This document shows, piece after piece, positions 79 through 10,214 of a stretch of 10,335 bases of DNA. Where the stretch lies: the IMG/VR virus record IMGVR_UViG_2609460059_000005; one strand, given 5' to 3'. Every line of letters starts with the position of its first letter. The stretch's first letter is position 1. Under the pieces are notes generated by a model. That model made no database searches and was not told the DNA's origin. It saw only the letters and a list, made by a program, of their open reading frames with translations. A program made the position numbers and the translations under genes. The stretch is from a virus (taxonomy: Duplodnaviria; Heunggongvirae; Uroviricota; Caudoviricetes).

Positions 79-1059
79 TTAGAGATCTAAGCTCTGCTGT
101 GTTGGTTCTGCTCTCAGATTTAAATCTTCACTAAAAATATAATCCATAATTTCTTTCAATTCAGTTGGCATTAGAAAAGATAAAGATTTTCGATTTTCCT
201 CTGAAAAGCTCAATTCCGGTCTTAAATTATATGTATTAGGTAAGTACGGATTAGCAATTTTCTTCGAATATTTATAAGCATATTCAACTGTGTGAGCAGT
301 ACCGCTTTTTATCTTCCACTCCACAGGAATAAGAGATGTGCACAGCGCAGCTTGAATTCTATTGCGTCTTACAAAATTTTCAGCGCTATAAATTTGGTCA
401 GGCAAATATTCAGTGACAATTGCACCTCCGCTTAAAACTATTTGATTGTAGAGATTTTTAGATCCCTTGGGATATTCTACAAAAATCCCGTTACCTAACA
501 CTGCAATTGTAGGTATCCCATAACGAATAGATTCATAATGGCATGATTGGTCAATCCCAGTAGCTAAACCACTTACAGTAACTATATCTTTTTCATACAA
601 CCCAGATACAATTAGTTTAACCAGAAAAATGCCATCATCTGTTGGCTTTCGCGTACCAACGATTGCAATTGATTTCTTATTAAGAATATCTTGATTCCCA
701 TGAACAAAAAGCCAAAAAGGAGGATCACTTATATTCTTTAAATTAGTTGGGAAAGTAGGTTGATCAAAAAAGGTTAGAACAATTCCTTTTTTATTTAATT
801 CTCTCGCTCGTTCTAATCCTTTCGCCCACAACTCTTGTTGAAATTCCTCCCACGCGATATCTTTGGGTAACGCAACCCTTAGATATCCAGCCAAAGCATC
901 AGCTGAACTAGCTTTTAAAAGATTTTTAAACCCTAGTTTGGATTCGTATATTTTACGGAGAGTCCAATAACCAACACCTTTTAAGCAGGTCAACGCAAGA
1001 AATGCTATGATTTCATTTTTCCAAAACTCTCTAATTTCAGTGTAATCTTTATCTTCCAT
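79..1059 (-). CDS. DprA/Smf-like (SLOG/Rossmann-fold) protein, 326 aa, in AT-rich cargo DNA
   Basis: Provided ORF. N-terminal segment LALTCLKGVGYWTLRKIYESKLGF resembles the DprA SAM/HhH-like domain. Core has SIAIVGTRKPT, VSGLATGIDQSCH, TIAVLGNGIFVEYP, RRNRIQAALC and KSGTAHTVEYA, matching the DprA Rossmann-fold pattern from memory. Composition is much more AT-rich than the adjacent sid/delta/primase block. Confidence 0.65.
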   Translation of the reverse strand: MEDKDYTEIREFWKNEIIAFLALTCLKGVGYWTLRKIYESKLGFKNLLKASSADALAGYLRVALPKDIAWEEFQQELWAKGLERARELNKKGIVLTFFDQPTFPTNLKNISDPPFWLFVHGNQDILNKKSIAIVGTRKPTDDGIFLVKLIVSGLYEKDIVTVSGLATGIDQSCHYESIRYGIPTIAVLGNGIFVEYPKGSKNLYNQIVLSGGAIVTEYLPDQIYSAENFVRRNRIQAALCTSLIPVEWKIKSGTAHTVEYAYKYSKKIANPYLPNTYNLRPELSFSEENRKSLSFLMPTELKEIMDYIFSEDLNLRAEPTQQSLDL

Positions 1060-1639: not shown

Positions 1640-1912
1640 TCAGACAGGGATTTGCTGACGGCTTGATAACTTTGATGCAGAGCCATAGCGATTGAGCGTT
1701 TTCTTTTGCTTTTCAGGCTCTTCCGGTTCATCTGATTCCTGTTCATTGCGCCGGGGTTTCATAATTATCGTATCCACACTTTCCAGTGCGGTAAATGTGC
1801 AGGAACATTCAAGATTCTGGCACTGATACCATGAGCGTTTAACCGATGGTGCTTCATAGGCGGAGGTTCTGGCGTGTGCCGTAGTGCCGCATTCGGGACA
1901 TTTAAGTGCCAT
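1640..1912 (-). CDS. Ogr/Delta-family zinc-finger late-gene transcriptional activator (P4 Delta-like, single domain), 90 aa
   Basis: MALKCPECGTTAHARTSAY...YQCQNLECSCTFTALES matches the C-x2-C ... AHARTS ... QCQN-x2-CS-x-TF signature of P2 Ogr / P4 Delta. SD GGAGG lies 7 nt upstream. Start overlaps the stop of the upstream gene (TGATG). Confidence 0.85.
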   Translation of the reverse strand: MALKCPECGTTAHARTSAYEAPSVKRSWYQCQNLECSCTFTALESVDTIIMKPRRNEQESDEPEEPEKQKKTLNRYGSASKLSSRQQIPV

Positions 1913-2673
1913 CAGATACCCTCCGCGGCTCGGTTACGTTTTTGCAGTTCTTCACGTTCCTGCCGGATCTTCATTTTATGAAGGGCCGCCGGAGAGGGAA
2001 GTTTGCGGAAATCAGCAAGGGCAGCATAATCCGGCGCAACACCTGCCAGTTTAAATACCGGGTCCTGTTCCGGCATCGCAGCGTTAGTAAGAGCCGGTTT
2101 GGTGATATGTTTGTGAATAAATTCTTTCAGTACTGTGTCCGGGTCATTAACTGAATTCACCACACCCACAACGGCACTGGCTTCCCGCCCCATTGTGGTT
2201 TTGAGCAGGCTCAGTGTCTGGATTAACGCCTTACCATGCGACTGCATGAAGTCTTCCCAGATTTGCTTTGCGCGAATTTCCACAAGGGTGTTATGTGCGC
2301 TGATATACTGCCCGGCTAATTTCCCGGCCTCCTGCGGTAATAAGGCATTTTCGCTTTCCTGAGCTGCCAGCAGTTCATCAAAATCCTCAAGCGTTTCTCG
2401 TCCCAGCGCAATTTCCGTGCGCAGTTTTTTCATTTCCTTTGAGACTACGCCCTGACTTTCACGAAACAGCGTGCGCCATTCCTCATTCAGCGCGTTAGTC
2501 GTGGCTTCCATTTCAGCGCGGCGCTGGCGGATTGTCGCAATATTATCTGCTGCCGCTTTTTGCTGACGACGTGCTTCAAGCCATGCGTTTCTGGTTGTGT
2601 TCAGGGTTTCCAGTGCCCGCTGCGTTACAGCCGGAAAAGTGGAAAGGCTGGTATTCTCTGCGGTGTTGTTCAT
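1912..2673 (-). CDS. Putative Sid-like capsid size determination (external scaffold) protein, 253 aa
   Basis: Provided ORF with SD AGGAG 6 nt upstream. Alpha-helical, charged, low-complexity composition. Immediately precedes and is translationally coupled to the Ogr/Delta homologue, as in the P4 sid-delta pair, and size is close to P4 Sid. Family assignment rests on context and recalled similarity, not a search. Confidence 0.5.
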   Translation of the reverse strand: MNNTAENTSLSTFPAVTQRALETLNTTRNAWLEARRQQKAAADNIATIRQRRAEMEATTNALNEEWRTLFRESQGVVSKEMKKLRTEIALGRETLEDFDELLAAQESENALLPQEAGKLAGQYISAHNTLVEIRAKQIWEDFMQSHGKALIQTLSLLKTTMGREASAVVGVVNSVNDPDTVLKEFIHKHITKPALTNAAMPEQDPVFKLAGVAPDYAALADFRKLPSPAALHKMKIRQEREELQKRNRAAEGI

Positions 2674-2848: not shown

Positions 2849-3047
2849 GTGGTGGAACAGGTGAAACATGTGTTACATCATTGTTTTATAAATTATTTAT
2901 ATGCACAGCACAGGTGGAACATCGCGGGTAACAAGGTGGAACAGCGGATCGGCTGGCGTTCCACCTGTTCCACCTCACTATTTCAAAAGGTGGAACAGGC
3001 TCAGCCCTTATAAAATACGGTTGTTCCACCTGTTTCACCTGTTACCC
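2849..3047. repeat. Iteron cluster, putative replication origin, immediately downstream of the primase gene
   Basis: At least 8 copies of GGTGGAACAG / CTGTTCCACC in both orientations (about 2851, 2913, 2935, 2958, 2965, 2989, 3022), plus degenerate copies GGTGAAACA (2860) and TGTTTCACC (3031). The motif resembles the P4 type I iteron TGTTCACC as recalled. No regular spacer structure. Confidence 0.6.
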
Positions 3048-3073: not shown

Positions 3074-5746
3074 TTAACCCGGCACCTCGCTGTTGAAGAC
3101 ATAGAGTCTGCGGGGATTCATCTCTGGCGGGCGAATGGTTGTCTGTAGCTTGCCATCGGTGGAGGGCAGCAGGTATCCACGATCCGCGCACAAACGCGCC
3201 ACCTTGCGCGGGTCAAATCCCCGGCAGATTTCTTTCCAGCCGGACGGCATGACGTAGAACGTGGTGACGGCTTCCGTGCCCTGCGCGGTACTCCCTTTCT
3301 CCACCCTGCGCCAGCCCACCATATTGCCGGGGCGGTTGCGCTCGTCGTGCCAGTCTGCAAAGCGGCTGTACTGATTCGCGGTAAAGAAACTGCGTACCTG
3401 CTCCAGCGCGGCAATATCTTCCTGATTGGCAGTATGCCCGCGATCTTTCAGCCATGCGTTCAGGCAGACGCGGGTTGCCCGCAGGGCTTCTCCCTCAGGC
3501 CAGCCGGTGATCCCCATACGGGTTGCCAGCTCGCCCGCCATCGCCACCAGTGCAAATCGGTTGACGGCCCGGCCCACCTGATTACCCGCATCTTTCGGGG
3601 TCAGCGCGGCGGTATATTCCTTCATCAGTGACTTTGCCTGTGACGTCAGCCCGTTAAGGTCAGCGGTCAGGGCTTTCAGCCACTCCCGGAACGGCGAACC
3701 GTAGTAGCTGGACGTGGCCCACTCCAGATGTTCCGCCAGTGCCTTGCCGCTGTCGAAGCCGTGCAGCTCCTCAAATACGCCAAATTTCCCGGAATCGCTG
3801 GGGATCTGGATCATCCTGACTTCCATCCCGGCAAAGGTACGCTCACCAGCTTTTGCCGCATGTTCGGTCAGTGACAGCTCGCCGGTTGAAAAGAACAGCA
3901 GCCGCCACTGCTTACGGGTGCGCAGCTCACCGTCCGTACCGGCACGGCCCTTGCCCTGACCGTTTGCCAGCATGTAGGCGATATTGCCTGCCTCGCGTCC
4001 GTCCACCTCCCGGATCTCATCGAGCATCATGGCGGCATCGTTGCGGCGGCTGGCGCATCCCTCCAGCGCGTTGCCGGTTGCCCGCCACGTCTGCCAGTAG
4101 TCAGGCCCGCCGCAGACGGAGGTTGCCGCTTTCATTGTGGTGGTCTTACCGTCCGTCGATTCCCCCTTGAGGTGATAGCCGCCGCCGTCCATACCAACCA
4201 ACCGTAACAGGGGGGCAGCAAACGCCAGACTGACGGCAAACGCCACGCGGGAGTTGCCGGTGCAGTAGCGGGAAACGTGCTCCCGCCATTCCTCCGTTGT
4301 GCCCGACACGCGGAAATCGCGACCCTGCACGGAAGTGGTCTGGAGAATGACACCCTCTGCACCTTCACCGCTGACCTCATCCTGCAGGACGTAAACCTGA
4401 CCATGCCAGCCGGTGCGGCTGACGCAGGTCACGCGGCGTTCCGGTTTACAAAGAGAGATATATTCCATAAGGCGTGCGCGGGCCTCACCGGTGGTGCTGA
4501 TATAGGACAGCCCGTTGACCAGCAGTACCCGGCGCAGCTCCTCACCGCTGCCGCTCAGCATTTCCATCGGCATCGCCCAGCGGCGGCGCTCACCCCACGT
4601 ATCTTCCCACTCCAGCAGTCGCCCGAAGTTACCGCCATCAGCATCGCAGGTGATTGCCGTTACGCGCAGCGGGTTGCATATTTTGACGTTCTGGATTTCC
4701 GTTTCACCGTTGCGCTGTACCTGTTTTTCATACCAGAGATATTCCTGGGTTAGACGGAACCCGTGCGGCAGTTGCGTGCGGCCCTCCCCGCACAGCACCA
4801 GACCGTTGCGAAAGGCTTCACGGGCACGGTTAATACCGTGCTCCCGATGGAAATCATTCCAGTCGGCCTTGATCTCTCCCGGTGGCAGCGTCATCCAGCC
4901 GCCAACGGCTTTTGCCGCCCGTTCAGCAAAAGATCTGCCGGGATTCTCGCCCCCGTCCTGAAAATCGTTATCACCGGCGATGATAATTTTTACCTCAGGC
5001 CAGCGTGCCCGCAGCGCCTGTGCGACGTTGGGCAGGTTGCCAGCAGATATGGCAGCCACTACGCATCCGGCGGTGATCTGGCTCACCGTCAGTGCCGTGG
5101 CGTAACCTTCGGTAATCACCACCTGTACCGGTGGTTCAGACGGTAACGGGCTGAGCGCCACAAACGCGCCTTTCATCGTGCTGCCGGGCAGTATGCTTTT
5201 TTCACCCGTCGGGGCGATAAGCTGCGCACCGGTCACGGCTCCAGCGTTGGTCGTGAGCGGTAGCAGCAGGGAGCCGGCAGGGAAATCCTTACCGCTGATA
5301 TGCTGCACGCTCCCGGTCAGGGGGGCCGGGTATCCGGCGAACCCTTTTCCGGTCAGATAGGGGCTTTCTCCCGTATGGCTCTCTTTCATCAGCGCCGCCA
5401 CGGTAAGGTTCATGTCGCGTTTAGGAGCTTTTTGCCTGGCGGGCTTAACGGGCAATTTCTGCACATCCGGAATATTAAGCACCTGCGCCACCTCCTGCGC
5501 GGCCTTTCTGACACCGTAACCGGTCATGAGCTTAACCAGATCCAGACCATCACCATTGCCGCACTGGCTGCAAATCCACGTCCCGCGCCCGTCAAGGTCA
5601 TCGAGGCGAAAACGATCCTTGCCCCCACATTTCGGGCAGGGACCGTGTCTGCCGTTTTCAGGTACATCAATACGCAGCATCTGCAGAATGACGGGCCATT
5701 TCCCCCGCGCGGCGGCTGAAATCTGCGTAACCGTCTGTGTTGTCAT
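3074..5746 (-). CDS. Primase-helicase (P4 alpha-like): N-terminal Zn-ribbon, Toprim domain, C-terminal Walker A/B NTPase; 890 aa
   Basis: Zn-ribbon CPKCGG...CSQCGNG. Toprim motifs VVITEGYATA and IIIAGDNDFQDGGENPGR. Walker A GESTDGKTT and Walker B-like MMLDEIRE. SD GGGGGA upstream. Start overlaps the stop of the upstream ORF (ATGA). Confidence 0.9.
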   Translation of the reverse strand: MTTQTVTQISAAARGKWPVILQMLRIDVPENGRHGPCPKCGGKDRFRLDDLDGRGTWICSQCGNGDGLDLVKLMTGYGVRKAAQEVAQVLNIPDVQKLPVKPARQKAPKRDMNLTVAALMKESHTGESPYLTGKGFAGYPAPLTGSVQHISGKDFPAGSLLLPLTTNAGAVTGAQLIAPTGEKSILPGSTMKGAFVALSPLPSEPPVQVVITEGYATALTVSQITAGCVVAAISAGNLPNVAQALRARWPEVKIIIAGDNDFQDGGENPGRSFAERAAKAVGGWMTLPPGEIKADWNDFHREHGINRAREAFRNGLVLCGEGRTQLPHGFRLTQEYLWYEKQVQRNGETEIQNVKICNPLRVTAITCDADGGNFGRLLEWEDTWGERRRWAMPMEMLSGSGEELRRVLLVNGLSYISTTGEARARLMEYISLCKPERRVTCVSRTGWHGQVYVLQDEVSGEGAEGVILQTTSVQGRDFRVSGTTEEWREHVSRYCTGNSRVAFAVSLAFAAPLLRLVGMDGGGYHLKGESTDGKTTTMKAATSVCGGPDYWQTWRATGNALEGCASRRNDAAMMLDEIREVDGREAGNIAYMLANGQGKGRAGTDGELRTRKQWRLLFFSTGELSLTEHAAKAGERTFAGMEVRMIQIPSDSGKFGVFEELHGFDSGKALAEHLEWATSSYYGSPFREWLKALTADLNGLTSQAKSLMKEYTAALTPKDAGNQVGRAVNRFALVAMAGELATRMGITGWPEGEALRATRVCLNAWLKDRGHTANQEDIAALEQVRSFFTANQYSRFADWHDERNRPGNMVGWRRVEKGSTAQGTEAVTTFYVMPSGWKEICRGFDPRKVARLCADRGYLLPSTDGKLQTTIRPPEMNPRRLYVFNSEVPG

Positions 5747-7433: not shown

Positions 7434-7664
7434 TTAGTGATTTGCATGCCGTTCACCACGAGAGGCATATATTTGCTCTTGAATCCAGTGATCGACTTCG
7501 CTTTCAACAAATGAAATTGCACGAGTTCCTATTTTTACTGGGCGGGGAAATGTATTATTTGAAAGCTGTTTGTAAAGCCATGCCTTGCTACGCTGAACGC
7601 GTCTTAACACCTCTTTTGCTGAAATAAGAGTCTGATTATCTGAAAGGTTGTTTGCATATTCCAT
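7434..7664 (-). CDS. alpA: AlpA/Vis-family phage transcriptional regulator (excisionase-like HTH), about 76 aa
   Basis: Start set at the internal Met (MEYANNLSDNQ...) with SD GGAG 8 nt upstream. LISAKEVLRRVQRSKAWLYKQLSNNTFPRPVKIGTRAISFVESEVDHWI matches the AlpA-family pattern. Gene lies near a P4-type integrase, as is typical. Confidence 0.75.
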   Translation of the reverse strand: MEYANNLSDNQTLISAKEVLRRVQRSKAWLYKQLSNNTFPRPVKIGTRAISFVESEVDHWIQEQIYASRGERHANH

Positions 7665-7928
7665 CTTGTTACTCCGTGTTCTACTTAAGTTCACGGTGAC
7701 TTTAAACACTGAAAAAAAGTGATTCTAGTGATAATGGAATCTATTAATACAAACGCTGATTCTATTGAAACGTGATAGTTTCTACTGAAAAAAGAAATAA
7801 TGTTCATATGAAAGAACACGAGAAGAGGAAAACGCACAACAAAATAAAATCAATAAAATTCATATAGATAGCATTGCAGCACAAACAAATCATACGTTAG
7901 AAGGTATTATTGCGTTTTATCGATTCAT

Positions 7929-8000
7929 ATTACTCAGGGATTACCACAGTATTACACTGTATTACCCTCTATAGCCCCTTAGAGCCTCTTGTAGCCCCTT
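7929..8000. repeat. Helically phased short repeats: ATTAC four times at 10-11 bp spacing, then three tandem 10-bp units (ATAGCCCCTT / AGAGCCTCTT / GTAGCCCCTT)
   Basis: ATTAC at 7929, 7940, 7951, 7961. Tandem units at 7971-7980, 7981-7990, 7991-8000. Located in the AT-rich spacer between the 212-aa gene and alpA. Confidence 0.45.
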
Positions 8001-8033
8001 CTAATGAGAGATATACAGATAGTAATAATAAAT

Positions 8034-8672
8034 TCACTCTCCGTATTTTATAATGTCTTTCCCCAGCTTTATTTTCTTATAGAACGTAGCTTTTTTAACT
8101 CCTTTCAATAGAATCTCATTCTCATTACAAAAAGAAACAATATCATTATATATAACACTATTATCGCTATAATTTCCCTTTCCATGTTTCTTAAGCAACT
8201 CAATTAGTAAGTAAATTAATTTACAACTATAATTATCCTCATCATCTTTTCTGTACTGCCCTCTGCCATTACTCCTTAACTTTTTACCAACTTCATATAA
8301 TTCACTTCCTCCTAGCATCATTAAAATATCGCCCCAATCTTTATTTTTTACTTGTTGTTGCAATGCGTTCTCAATTCTTTCCTTAATTTCAGGAGGTACA
8401 ATATCTTCCCTCTGAAAGATATAAGCGGCAGTTAATACTAAATTCGCCTCCACTTTTTGCGTGGCGGATATGTTTTTATATTCATTAATCAATTGTAGAT
8501 TTCTGGTTATTGCCTTTCTTAACCGAATAACCTCTTTTAATTGAATATCAGTCAATTCATCATTTTCGGTATCATAGTCAAAACCATTCATAGCAAGCGC
8601 CACTTCGTGCGGCGTAATGTACGTTAACCTATTAAAATAAAACAAATTATTATCAGATTGAGTGTTATTCAT
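8034..8672 (-). CDS. Hypothetical protein, 212 aa, AT-rich orphan gene between integrase and alpA
   Basis: Provided ORF. Strong SD GAGGAG 8 nt upstream. Starts 30 nt after the integrase stop. Clearly more AT-rich than its neighbours. No recognisable motifs. Confidence 0.65.
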   Translation of the reverse strand: MNNTQSDNNLFYFNRLTYITPHEVALAMNGFDYDTENDELTDIQLKEVIRLRKAITRNLQLINEYKNISATQKVEANLVLTAAYIFQREDIVPPEIKERIENALQQQVKNKDWGDILMMLGGSELYEVGKKLRSNGRGQYRKDDEDNYSCKLIYLLIELLKKHGKGNYSDNSVIYNDIVSFCNENEILLKGVKKATFYKKIKLGKDIIKYGE

Positions 8673-8702
8673 TTGAATCTCTCCTCAGTACCACAATGGT
8701 AA

Positions 8703-9965
8703 TTATTTTCCATGCACACGCGCAAAATCATATGGTGTGATAGATCCATTCTTGTTAGCATCAATGTAATCAGCCCACCATTGCAGCATTAATTTTCTTT
8801 CTTCAAGATATTCAGAAGTATGCATATATGAACCTTTCACGTTTTTTCGTTCAACGTGACTTAGCTGTCTTTCAATGGCATCATCATTCCATAGTTTCGA
8901 CTCACTTAGCGCACCACGCGCCATAGTTCTAAAACCATGCCCACATACTTCTGTCTTCGTATCATATCCCATTACACGTAAGGCGCTATTTACAGTATTT
9001 TCACTCATAACTTTTTTAGGATCATGATCGCTGGGAAATATAACCTCGCCTTTACCGCTCAAGGCATGTAAACGTTTAAAAATATCAAATGCTTGTTTGC
9101 TAAGCGGAACAATATGTTCAGTTTTCATCTTCATCCCACGCTCAGAGTGTTTTACGCCGGGAATAGGTTTACGAATTCCGGGTATCGTCCACTCGCTTCG
9201 TTCAAAGTTAACCTCACTCCAGCGAGCAAAACGCATCTCACTTGAACGAATAAATGTGAGTAGCGTTAATTCAACGGCAAGCCGTGTCATTAGTCGCCCT
9301 TTATAGCGTGATAGTCTTTCAAGAAACTCAGGGATTCTTTTTGGGGGTAGTGCTGGGTGATGGGTTGCCTTAACGCTTAAAAGCGCTCCAGCCATATCAC
9401 TGGCAGGATTTGATTCAAGAAGGTCATTCTGCACACCGAAACGCATAATTGCGGTTACGCGCTGCATCAGTCGCTGCGCAACATCATGTTTACCTGCCGC
9501 ATCAACAGCTTTGATCGGATTGAGAAGCTGGCTGGTTCTCAACATTCTGGCGTCAATTTGACCTATCGAGGGGAAAATATACTGCTCAAGCGTCAGCAGA
9601 ACGCGACGGCTATGATCTTCGCTCCAAGTTAGGTTACTTGCGTGCCATTGCCTTGCGATAGTTTCAAATAAATATGCCCCCTCAATTTCAGCTTGTGCCC
9701 CCTTTTGCTCAGCTTTGGGGTCAATGCCCTGAGACAACAATTTCTTTGCTGCATCACGCTTACCCCGAGCCTCAGCCAAAGTGATCGTCGGGTATACACC
9801 AAAAGCGAGCCGATCTTCCTTTTTGTCAGATGGGCGGCGATATTTCATGCGCCAATACTTGGAACCTTTTGGGGAGACTTCAAGATACAAGCCGCCTCCA
9901 TCAGCCATTTTATAGGCTTTCTCTTTCGGCTTTGCGGTCTCTATCTGGCGAGCATTGAGTTTCAT
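8703..9965 (-). CDS. int: P4-type tyrosine integrase (site-specific recombinase), about 420 aa
   Basis: Start set at the internal Met (MKLNARQIETAKPKEKAYKMADGGGLYLEV...), a typical P4-family integrase N-terminus. C-terminal catalytic region has HGFRTMARGAL and the Y-containing KGSYMHTSEY. Gene is adjacent to, and co-oriented with, the tRNA-Leu 3' end. Confidence 0.9.
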   Translation of the reverse strand: MKLNARQIETAKPKEKAYKMADGGGLYLEVSPKGSKYWRMKYRRPSDKKEDRLAFGVYPTITLAEARGKRDAAKKLLSQGIDPKAEQKGAQAEIEGAYLFETIARQWHASNLTWSEDHSRRVLLTLEQYIFPSIGQIDARMLRTSQLLNPIKAVDAAGKHDVAQRLMQRVTAIMRFGVQNDLLESNPASDMAGALLSVKATHHPALPPKRIPEFLERLSRYKGRLMTRLAVELTLLTFIRSSEMRFARWSEVNFERSEWTIPGIRKPIPGVKHSERGMKMKTEHIVPLSKQAFDIFKRLHALSGKGEVIFPSDHDPKKVMSENTVNSALRVMGYDTKTEVCGHGFRTMARGALSESKLWNDDAIERQLSHVERKNVKGSYMHTSEYLEERKLMLQWWADYIDANKNGSITPYDFARVHGK

Positions 9966-10019
9966 TTTGGGGGCACAAATCCTGATCGAATTGACATGCC
10001 CCCGATTATGCCCCCAAAA
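9965..10019. promoter_or_regulatory. Inverted repeat TTTTGGGGGCA ... TGCCCCCAAAA flanking the integrase start and 5' leader
   Basis: 11-bp arms at 9965-9975 and 10009-10019, with an extra TGCCCCC at 9997-10003. The left arm abuts the int ATG (9963-9965). No strong SD precedes the int start. Confidence 0.35.
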
Positions 10020-10129
10020 GAGGGTAGACCACAAGAGACCAACAAAGACCATGAAATACGGTAACTTGCTTGTTTTTAAGGATTTTTTCTGGATTTGTAG
10101 ACTTCAGGAAACGTCAAAAGAAGTGTTAA

Positions 10130-10214
10130 TGGTGCCGAAGGCCGGACTCGAACCGGCACGTATTTCTACGGTTGATTTTGAATCAACTGCGTCTACCGAT
10201 TTCGCCACTTCGGC
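10130..10214 (-). tRNA. leuX: tRNA-Leu (anticodon CAA), leuX-type
   Basis: Reverse complement reads GCCGAAGTGGCGAAATCGGTAGACGCAGTTGATTCAAAATCAACCGTAGAAATACGTGCCGGTTCGAGTCCGGCCTTCGGCACCA. It has a 7-bp acceptor stem, a CAA anticodon in a 7-nt loop, a long variable arm, a GGTTCGAGTCC T-arm and a CCA end. Confidence 0.9.

What the first reader, a model, noticed from the sequence alone, without database searches (positions are those of the whole stretch)
8034..8672. Orphan AT-rich 212-aa gene inserted between integrase and alpA
The int-to-alpA interval in P4-type islands is a variable cargo site. This gene has a strong SD, begins 30 nt after the int stop, is far more AT-rich than its neighbours, and shows no motif I can assign (mixed charged/hydrophobic, no clear TM segment or catalytic signature). 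It could be a single-gene defence, anti-defence or abortive-infection factor.
Basis: partly seen in the sequence, partly recalled or inferred. Interest (0 to 1): 0.55.

Follow-up and report, generated by a model that had tools for sequence, protein, structure and literature searches.

The report
Integrase-coupled satellite gene of unknown function
The 212-aa gene is real, but it is not a freshly inserted orphan: it belongs to a small, uncharacterised, all-helical protein family that always sits directly after the integrase and before alpA in phage satellites, so it looks like a fixed part of that control module rather than swappable defence cargo.

Summary
The ORF at 8034-8672 (minus strand) is real. 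It has a good Shine-Dalgarno site, starts 30 nt after the int stop, has the lowest G+C in the window (31.6%) and evolves under purifying selection (dN/dS 0.04-0.14).

It is not an orphan. It matches PHROG 30524 (function unknown) over its full length. The family is small: 41 representatives among 1.84 billion proteins.

In every locus examined (about 25), the family member lies integrase -> gene -> 300-680 nt AT-rich spacer -> alpA, often overlapping the int stop codon. These loci cover three integrase clades that are only 20-27% identical to each other, at least four satellite backbones and four integration sites.

In complete E. coli genomes, 205 carry this integrase allele group and 205 carry the gene. 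The cargo in the true defence hotspot beyond delta differs among four elements compared (Shosta, an ABC-three-component system, retron St85).

Relatives with 47-80% identical integrases hold unrelated genes, or nothing, in the same slot.

A confident AlphaFold model (pLDDT 89.5) has no significant structural match. Only weak similarities to small DNA-binding helical domains were seen. There is no match to known defence proteins.

My best guess, held with low confidence, is a DNA-binding regulator of the int/alpA switch, made together with integrase. A defence or anti-defence role is not excluded.

The parts
8034..8672 (-). The gene in question ('X'): 212 aa, all-alpha, member of PHROG 30524, function unknown.
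   Evidence: ORF. Same CDS in RefSeq. PHROG match E = 1e-112 over full length. dN/dS 0.04-0.14. AlphaFold model pLDDT 89.5.
8679..8686 (-). Shine-Dalgarno-like GAGGAGAG; the AGGAG core ends 8 nt before the ATG.
   Evidence: Sequence read directly.
8673..8702 (-). 30-nt int-X junction. In homologous loci the two genes overlap by 1 or 4 nt, or lie up to 98 nt apart. No terminator was predicted here, so int and X are probably one transcription unit (inferred).
8703..9965 (-). P4-type tyrosine integrase, using the 420-aa RefSeq start (the longest ORF would start at 10052). A sharp recombination breakpoint lies at its stop codon.
   Evidence: Pfam. Identity to L006/L007/L009 drops from 94-100% nt to 45-70% at about 8703. 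int dS is 0.18, alpA dS is 1.2-1.3 and X dS is saturated.
7665..8033 (-). AT-rich, non-coding X-alpA spacer (32.5% G+C). It presumably holds the alpA promoter and control region.
   Evidence: No Rfam family matched. No terminator-like site on the minus strand.
7929..8000 (-). Seven direct repeats phased at 10-11 nt, starting 34 nt after the X stop. AAGRGGCT occurs three times (8000-7973) and GTAAT four times (7965-7929). The binding protein is unknown.
   Evidence: TRF. Exact positions. 22 of 30 matches at lag 10, against 0 of 500 shuffles. Analogous arrays with locus-specific sequence occur in all 8 X-bearing spacers tested, and also in 3 X-less int-alpA gaps.
7721..7765 (-). Three (A/C)TAGA(A/T)TC boxes upstream of alpA. 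Similar TCAAT(A/G)GAAT boxes occur in the other loci. They are probably AlpA or helper-activator sites (inferred).
7434..7664 (-). alpA-family regulator (76 aa with the RefSeq start), followed by a hairpin.
   Evidence: Pfam Phage_AlpA E = 2e-11. Annotation in L001. Sequence.
10130..10214 (-). tRNA-Leu(CAA), leuX: the integration site (attL side).
   Evidence: ARAGORN. Rfam. Genomic context ahr-yjgR-lptG in E. coli.

Best explanation
X is a lineage-specific backbone gene of the int-alpA control module found in a subset of enterobacterial phage satellites. These include P4-like hybrids, PICIs and capsid-forming PICIs.

The proposed mechanism is as follows. X is made together with integrase from the int transcript while the satellite is integrated. 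It is a two-domain, all-helical, mostly basic protein that binds DNA. It helps set the state of the int/alpA switch, most plausibly by keeping alpA silent or insulated from int read-through until a helper phage arrives. This would be a functional analogue of a satellite maintenance repressor, not swappable defence cargo.

Shown here:
- the gene is real and under purifying selection;
- it keeps strict synteny with, and tight coupling to, int;
- it has been inherited with alpA over a long period;
- it is fixed within its lineage while the true hotspot turns over;
- it has a confident fold with no known relative.

Inferred, not shown: co-transcription with int, DNA binding, the target sites, and any effect on alpA.
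For: 1. **Synteny.** Every locus examined has integrase -> X -> 300-680 nt spacer -> alpA on one strand. This holds for the window, L001, L002, L004-L009 and L014-L020 (leuX site); L012, L013 and L095 (next to yicC); L103 (next to der); L003 (an induced capsid-forming PICI); L094; and L102 (a 12-kb circular episome). No family member was found in any other context.
2. **Coupling to int.** The X start overlaps the int stop by 4 nt in four loci and by 1 nt in two. The gap is 30-98 nt in the others.
3. **Depth of the association.** These loci span three integrase clades that are 20-27% identical to each other. Close pairs agree across all three genes, and the order of conservation is always X < AlpA < Int: 66/75/97, 41/61/89 and 29/37/49%.
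4. **Shared history with alpA.** Between the window and L006, int dS is 0.18, alpA dS is 1.2-1.3 and X dS is saturated. X therefore shares alpA's old history, and int was swapped in recently.
5. **Fixation within the lineage.** In E. coli, 205 genomes carry the gene and 205 carry int at 95% nt identity or more. Among the four elements compared, the hotspot beyond delta carries Shosta, an ABC-three-component system or retron St85.
6. **Narrow distribution.** There are 41 representatives among 1.84 billion proteins, and all named sources are Enterobacterales. Widely shared defence genes are usually far more widespread (general knowledge).
8. **Composition.** Low G+C relative to both neighbours is seen in all nine loci, so it is a maintained trait and not a mark of recent import.
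Against: - No significant sequence or structural similarity to any DNA-binding family was found. All the hints are below threshold.
- Phased repeats also occur in int-alpA gaps that lack X (L087, L088, L092). They cannot be assigned to X.
- Most P4-like satellites and PICIs lack the gene, so it is not needed for the satellite life cycle in general. IS1-disrupted copies exist.
- The same slot holds unrelated proteins in related elements. This pattern also fits accessory cargo.
- The published model for Gram-negative PICIs has alpA switched on by the helper and names no island repressor (PMC6092414, PMC11773190).
- X is co-directional with alpA, not divergent from it as classical repressor-operator pairs are.
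Confidence: 0.4

Rival explanations
1. X is accessory cargo: a single-gene anti-phage defence, anti-defence or abortive-infection factor, or a host-modulating 'moron'. It sits just after int so that it is expressed while the satellite is integrated.
For: - The slot is occupied by unrelated families, or is empty, in related integrase lineages.
- The gene is AT-rich.
- It evolves faster than both neighbours.
- It is dispensable, since IS1-disrupted copies exist.
- SaPIs carry accessory genes between int and stl (PMC6092414).
- Satellites are rich in defence genes (PMC9122126, PMC13586616).
- One decayed island keeps only int plus an intact X (L101).
Against: - No match in PADLOC for X or for two distant homologues.
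- No enzymatic or membrane features; the protein is all-alpha.
- No presence/absence polymorphism among the 205 E. coli elements, while the recognised hotspot in sampled members of the same lineage turns over.
- It is never found outside the int-alpA context.
- The family is tiny and taxonomically narrow.
- The divergence pattern shows long co-residence with alpA rather than shuttling.
Confidence: 0.3
2. X is a partner of the integrase itself. It would be an accessory or architectural factor that tunes integration against excision, for example by stabilising the integrated state or competing at recombination sites. This would explain why its translation is coupled to that of Int.
For: - Overlapping stop and start codons with int in six of nine loci.
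- Exclusive association with P4-type integrases across three clades.
Against: - X tracks alpA, not int. Int is 97-98% identical between the window and L006, whereas X is 66% identical, and there is a breakpoint exactly at the int stop. A nearly identical Int therefore works next to very different X proteins.
- No sequence similarity to Int.
- The repeats near X lie about 2.1 kb from the att core, outside any usual recombination complex.
- AlpA already fills the excisionase-like role (PMC6092414, PMC11773190).
Confidence: 0.15
3. X has some other satellite-specific role, such as sensing or interfering with the helper phage or excluding competing satellites. Alternatively, it has no current function.
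For: - It is restricted to satellites and evolves fast, yet under constraint.
- It is present in elements that are active: an induced capsid-forming PICI (L003) and a circular episome (L102).
Against: - Known interference genes lie in the late operons, not next to int (general knowledge of P4 and PICIs).
- Purifying selection and conservation of 212-236 aa full-length proteins down to about 20% identity argue against having no function.
Confidence: 0.12

Closest known systems
PHROG 30524 (for example CAD5235976 of Escherichia phage vB_KppS-Ant, LR881103)
   Same: Full-length profile match (E = 1e-112 for the window protein, 1e-120 for the vB_KppS-Ant protein). Same length, and same position directly after int and before the AlpA-like regulator.
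   Different: Only 25% identical to the window protein, and located in a capsid-forming PICI rather than a P4-like element. The family carries no functional annotation.
SaPI Stl master repressors (Gram-positive satellites)
   Same: Encoded next to int and expressed in the integrated state. Highly divergent between islands. The slot next to int is filled by proteins that are mutually unrecognisable at sequence level. (General knowledge; gene layout in PMC6092414.)
   Different: Stl is transcribed divergently from the genes it represses and has a recognisable N-terminal helix-turn-helix. X is co-directional with alpA and has no significant HTH match. No repression or helper-induced release has been shown. 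There is no sequence or fold similarity.
Defence cargo of the P4 int-psu hotspot (Rousset et al. 2022, PMC9122126; PMC13586616)
   Same: AT-rich gene of unknown function next to a P4-type integrase in a leuX satellite.
   Different: The hotspot lies between int and psu across the att junction. Here it is the region beyond delta, which holds ShosA. Hotspot cargo differs between close relatives, whereas X does not. X has no defence-family match.
DUF6387 proteins (Pfam PF19924)
   Same: They occupy the same int-alpA slot in an element whose integrase is 80% identical (L021), and lie next to alpA in L094. Function is unknown.
   Different: Unrelated by profile comparison (probability 0.7%), larger (about 350 aa), and with no phased repeats after the gene.
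AlpA / P4 Vis family (Pfam PF05930)
   Same: A small local resemblance between the C-terminal G-x-x-K-S-T-F-Y-x-K motif and the AlpA turn plus recognition helix. Same module.
   Different: Not significant (probability 4%). X is three times larger, and a genuine alpA gene lies downstream.

Membership tests
PHROG 30524 (unknown function) | Full-length match to the family profile | tested here: met
   E = 1e-112, residues 1-212 against profile positions 1-220 of 220. Distant homologues also match.
Known anti-phage defence proteins (PADLOC-DB 2.0) | Profile match to any defence-system component | tested here: not met
   No family at E <= 1 for X. None at E <= 0.1 for two distant homologues or for the other slot occupants. 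In the same search, ShosA at 79-1059 scored 1e-89.
P4 hotspot cargo (int-psu hotspot) | Lies between int and psu/delta across the att junction | tested here: not met
   X lies between int and alpA. The delta-distal region (79-1639) is the hotspot equivalent.
P4 hotspot cargo (int-psu hotspot) | Presence and content vary among closely related elements | tested here: not met
   205 E. coli genomes carry this int allele group and 205 carry X. The hotspot differs among the four elements compared.
Helix-turn-helix / winged-helix DNA-binding proteins | Significant sequence or structure match to an HTH or winged-helix domain | tested here: inconclusive
Tyrosine-recombinase core-binding (SAM-like) domain | Fold match with a convincing score | tested here: inconclusive
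SaPI Stl-type master repressor | Encoded next to int | tested here: met
   Directly downstream of int in all loci.
SaPI Stl-type master repressor | Divergent from the repressed operon, with operators in the shared intergenic region | tested here: not met
   X and alpA are on the same strand. Repeats exist in the spacer but are not specific to X.
SaPI Stl-type master repressor | Binds the operator and is released by a helper-phage protein | not testable with these tools
   Needs gel-shift, reporter and interaction experiments.
Excisionase / recombination directionality factor | Small (under about 100 aa) winged-helix protein with a match to Xis, AlpA or Cox families | tested here: not met
   X is 212 aa with no family match. 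The AlpA-family gene lies downstream at 7434-7664.
Cap4-type nuclease (PF14130) | Match above the gathering threshold and an alpha/beta nuclease fold | tested here: not met
   14.1 bits against a cut-off of 26.2. The model is all-alpha.

The most novel reading that the evidence does not exclude
X, and possibly the unrelated proteins that fill the same slot in other lineages, is the missing maintenance repressor or helper sensor of AlpA-controlled Gram-negative satellites. It would be a protein of new fold, made with integrase, that holds the alpA control region shut through the phased repeats and is neutralised by a specific helper-phage protein. This would be a Gram-negative counterpart of SaPI Stl. 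Its fast divergence would then record an arms race with helper phages.
Probability: 0.12. Interest if true: 0.8.

Novelty: new variant of a known kind. Interest (0 to 1): 0.45.

Why it matters
How Gram-negative satellites stay silent, and how a helper phage switches on alpA, is only partly understood. A gene that is always wired between the integrase and the alpA control region is a concrete, easily testable candidate for part of that switch. It occurs in P4-like elements, classical PICIs and capsid-forming PICIs alike, and it has a confident but unmatched fold.

If it instead proves to be a defence or anti-defence gene, it would define a second cargo position in satellites with unusually strict placement. 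Either way, the result corrects the assumption that this interval is the known P4 hotspot. It also shows that integrase genes are swapped between satellites exactly at the int/X boundary.

Tried and rejected
- **Profile libraries.** Pfam, NCBIfam and PADLOC gave nothing significant for X. Scanning all 34 family members against Pfam gave only scattered sub-threshold hits.
- **Spurious weak hits.** The Cap4_nuclease, S-layer and EncB hits are below cut-off and incompatible with an all-alpha model.
- **Solved structures by sequence.** A PDB search with the family profile gave nothing better than E = 0.6.
- **First structure model.** With 14 sequences it was poor (pLDDT 59.7) and was discarded. 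A 34-sequence alignment gave pLDDT 89.5.
- **Remote homology to the other slot occupants.** DUF6387 and the 246-aa and 228-aa proteins are not related to X.
- **Derivation from Int or AlpA.** Not supported.
- **Spacer repeats as X-specific operators.** Weakened, because X-less gaps also have phased arrays.
- **Spacer repeats as integrase arm sites.** Rejected. Int is 97-98% identical in L006/L007/L009, where the repeats differ, and the att-proximal repeats have another sequence.
- **Spacer repeats as primase origin iterons.** Rejected for the window. The TGTTCCACC-type iterons lie at 2851-3043.
- **Known RNA gene in the spacer.** None found.
- **X as small terminase.** Rejected. There is no family match, and the capsid-forming PICI L003 has its own terminase small-subunit gene annotated elsewhere.
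- **Literature.** No paper mentions the accessions or the PHROG.
- **P0052.** This 1106-aa protein is a repeat-protein artefact of the profile search.

Full report
**Setting**

The window is a phage satellite integrated at tRNA-Leu(CAA), leuX (10130-10214, minus strand). In E. coli genomes the same element lies beside ahr-yjgR-lptG. Read on the minus strand, the gene order is:

1. leuX
2. a P4-type integrase (8703-9965)
3. the 212-aa ORF, called X here (8034-8672)
4. a 369-nt spacer
5. alpA (7434-7664)
6. a YlcI/YnfO gene on the other strand
7. an icd-like gene and several small genes
8. DUF5375
9. a Toprim/DUF927 primase (3074-5746)
10. origin-type iterons
11. a Psu-fold protein (1912-2673)
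12. an Ogr/Delta protein (1640-1912)
13. an AT-rich ShosA gene of the Shosta defence system (79-1059; PADLOC E = 1e-89)

**The observation**

The ORF sits at exactly the stated coordinates, and RefSeq annotates the same CDS. The int stop is at 8705-8703 and the ATG at 8672-8670, with 30 nt between them. GAGGAGAG lies at 8686-8679.

G+C is 31.6%. That compares with 44.8% for int, 40.3% for alpA and 60.7% for the primase.

Nei-Gojobori estimates between alleles give dN/dS of 0.04-0.14. It is therefore a real, constrained protein-coding gene.

**It is not an orphan**

- X matches PHROG 30524 (function unknown) over its full length at E = 1e-112.
- The word-indexed search of 5.8 billion proteins returned 23 clusters. 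All are labelled hypothetical, and all named ones are Enterobacterales.
- An exhaustive profile search of 1.84 billion representatives found only 41 proteins at E <= 0.001.
- An alignment of 32 members, down to about 20% identity, shows shared motifs. These include T-P at residue 93, L-G-G-x-E-L, G-R-G-x-x-R-K-x-D-E followed by K-L-I-x-L-L, and a C-terminal G-x-x-K-S-T-F-Y-x-K.

**Position**

In every locus I could examine, the family member lies directly after a P4-type integrase. It is followed, after a 300-680 nt AT-rich spacer, by an alpA-family gene on the same strand. The loci are:

| Site or type | Loci |
|---|---|
| leuX elements | window, L001, L002, L004-L009, L014-L020 |
| PICI-like elements next to yicC (L012, L013 with AntA; all three with a DUF927 primase) | L012, L013, L095 |
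| Element next to der | L103 |
| Induced capsid-forming PICI vB_KppS-Ant | L003 |
| Metagenomic element | L094 |
| 12-kb circular episome that is an excised PICI | L102 |

The X start overlaps the int stop by 4 nt in four loci and by 1 nt in two. The gap is 30-98 nt in the other three.

Searches of 50,697 phage genomes and 72,556 plasmids with the protein found only such contexts.

**History**

Between the window and L006/L007/L009, nucleotide identity is 94-100% across int. It falls at the int stop codon to 45-70% through X, to 40-50% in the spacer, and recovers to 70-85% in alpA.

Synonymous divergence tells the same story. It is 0.18 for int, 1.2-1.3 for alpA and saturated for X. The integrase was therefore exchanged recently, with a breakpoint at the int/X boundary, and X belongs with alpA to the older part of the element. 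This agrees with the published remark that P4 elements and PICIs sharing one att site share only the int gene (PMC6092414).

Across three integrase clades that are 20-27% identical to each other, the closest pairs agree for all three genes. The conservation order is always X < AlpA < Int: 66/75/97, 41/61/89 and 29/37/49%. X has therefore resided in this module for a long time, and it evolves faster than both neighbours.

**Cargo or core?**

Within the lineage, X behaves as core.

- A 1-kb query around X and a 2-kb query spanning alpA, X and half of int each match 205 of 5,426 complete E. coli genomes.
- An integrase-only search finds 205 genomes at 95% identity or more.
- Among the four elements compared (window, L001, L002, L100), the region beyond delta carries Shosta, an ABC-three-component system or a retron St85.

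At greater depth the slot does vary.

- Viral contigs with integrases 80%, 75% and 58% identical carry a DUF6387 protein and two other unknown proteins there.
- Those at about 47% identity carry no ORF.
- None of these proteins is detectably related to X.

Canonical P4-likes at leuX, with int about 69% identical at nucleotide level, have int -> variable cargo <- psu <- delta. That int-psu interval is the documented defence hotspot (PMC8628076, PMC13586616). The window has a non-canonical, PICI-like left half (int-alpA-primase) joined to psu/delta genes.

X can be lost. IS1 interrupts it in L100 and in two of the seven E. coli copies of the L003-type allele.

**What the protein looks like**

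With a 34-sequence alignment, AlphaFold2 gives a confident all-helical model (mean pLDDT 89.5, pTM 0.62).

- Foldseek finds nothing at E <= 0.001 in PDB or BFVD.
- Most family members are basic (pI 8.3-9.5), and in X the C-terminal third has pI 9.0.
- A profile comparison aligns the C-terminal motif with the turn and recognition helix of AlpA, but without significance.
- There is no similarity to the integrases.

These results are hints of DNA binding and nothing more.

**The spacer**

Just after X, every X-bearing locus has an array of direct repeats phased at exactly 10 nt. The repeat sequence is specific to each locus.

- In the window, AAGRGGCT occurs three times and GTAAT four times, between 8000 and 7929.
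- In all eight spacers tested the best lag was 10, and 0-5 of 500 shuffles reached the observed score.
- The arrays occur nowhere else in the loci.
- They are not integrase arm sites, because Int is nearly identical in loci where the repeats differ.
- They are not the primase iterons, which lie at 2851-3043.
- However, three int-alpA gaps that lack X also have such arrays.

The arrays therefore belong to the alpA control region in general and cannot be assigned to X. Closer to alpA, all loci share TCAAT(A/G)GAAT-like boxes.

**Interpretation**

Several observations argue that the protein's job is tied to the int/alpA module:

- the exclusive and ancient association with that module;
- the coupling to int;
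- fixation within the lineage while the true hotspot turns over;
- the narrow distribution;
- the absence of any defence signature.

I therefore rank highest, at confidence 0.4, a DNA-binding regulator made with integrase that helps keep alpA silent or insulated. Its analogy to SaPI Stl is positional and evolutionary only. The orientation differs, and no repression has been shown.

The slot varies at depth, the gene is AT-rich, fast-evolving and dispensable, and SaPIs do carry accessory genes next to int.

A direct integrase-partner role (0.15) is weakened by the breakpoint at the int stop: a nearly identical Int sits next to very different X proteins.

**Verdict**

The gene belongs to an uncharacterised, satellite-specific family with an unmatched fold and remarkably strict placement. 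It is of moderate interest, mainly as a testable candidate for the poorly understood control of alpA.

Noticed in passing
window 79-1059 (minus strand), with AT-rich flank 1060-1639: A DprA-like gene matches ShosA of the Shosta anti-phage system (PADLOC E = 1e-89). It lies in the delta-distal position that corresponds to the known P4 defence hotspot. No ShosT-sized ORF lies upstream, so the partner gene may lie beyond the window's left end or be absent.
   Followed up: partly
window about 8703 (int stop codon): A sharp recombination breakpoint. Int is 94-100% identical at nucleotide level to elements of Izhakiella, Klebsiella indica and Apirhabdus, whose downstream genes are only 45-85% identical and whose primase is of another type (Ash plus a Toprim protein). 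Integrase genes are evidently swapped between satellite backbones.
   Followed up: yes
window 7929-8000 (minus strand); analogous sites in L002, L003, L006, L012, L013, L094, L095: Arrays of direct repeats phased at exactly 10 nt, with locus-specific sequence, lie between X and alpA in all X-bearing loci. Similar arrays occur in some X-less int-alpA gaps (L087, L088, L092). The L087/L088 units read TTAAAGTGG, which recalls from memory the binding boxes of P2 Cox. The binding protein is unknown.
   Followed up: partly
window 7721-7765 (minus strand): Three (A/C)TAGA(A/T)TC boxes lie upstream of alpA. TCAAT(A/G)GAAT-like boxes recur upstream of alpA in loci from all three integrase clades. They are likely AlpA autoregulation sites or helper-activator sites.
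   Followed up: no
window 2851-3043: Three clusters of 9-nt repeats (TGTTCCACC / GGTGAAACA) lie between the primase and the Psu-like gene. From memory, they resemble the P4 type I iteron TGTTCACC, so this is probably the replication origin.
   Followed up: no
window 9970-10055 (minus strand), between leuX and int: TGGTCT occurs three times at 10-nt spacing. GGGGGCAT occurs twice, plus an inverted TGCCCCC just before the int start. These are candidate integrase arm sites and regulator sites of attL. The longest int ORF (449 aa, from 10052) would run through them, so the 420-aa RefSeq start at 9965 is more plausible.
   Followed up: no
window 1912-2673 compared with L002 5680-6971: The window's 253-aa protein with a Pfam Psu match corresponds to the protein annotated 'septation initiation protein' in L002 (87% identity), not to L002's separate 183-aa Psu. 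The window and L001 therefore lack a canonical psu gene and keep only this Sid-position, Psu-fold protein.
   Followed up: partly
L102 (NZ_CP148430.1, whole 12,152-bp record): A record deposited as a non-mobilizable E. coli plasmid is in fact a circular PICI, with int, an X homologue, AntA, an Icd-like gene, a DUF927 primase and PerC. It is probably an excised episomal satellite.
   Followed up: no
L100 10563-11036; hits H132 and H133; L101: IS1 has inserted into the X gene or its spacer in several E. coli strains, in two different X alleles. These AT-rich sequences appear to be favoured IS1 targets.
   Followed up: partly
L021 1402-2460; L094 2583-3400: DUF6387 proteins (function unknown) also sit next to alpA, and in L021 also next to a P4-type integrase. 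They form a second family that seems specialised to this slot.
   Followed up: partly
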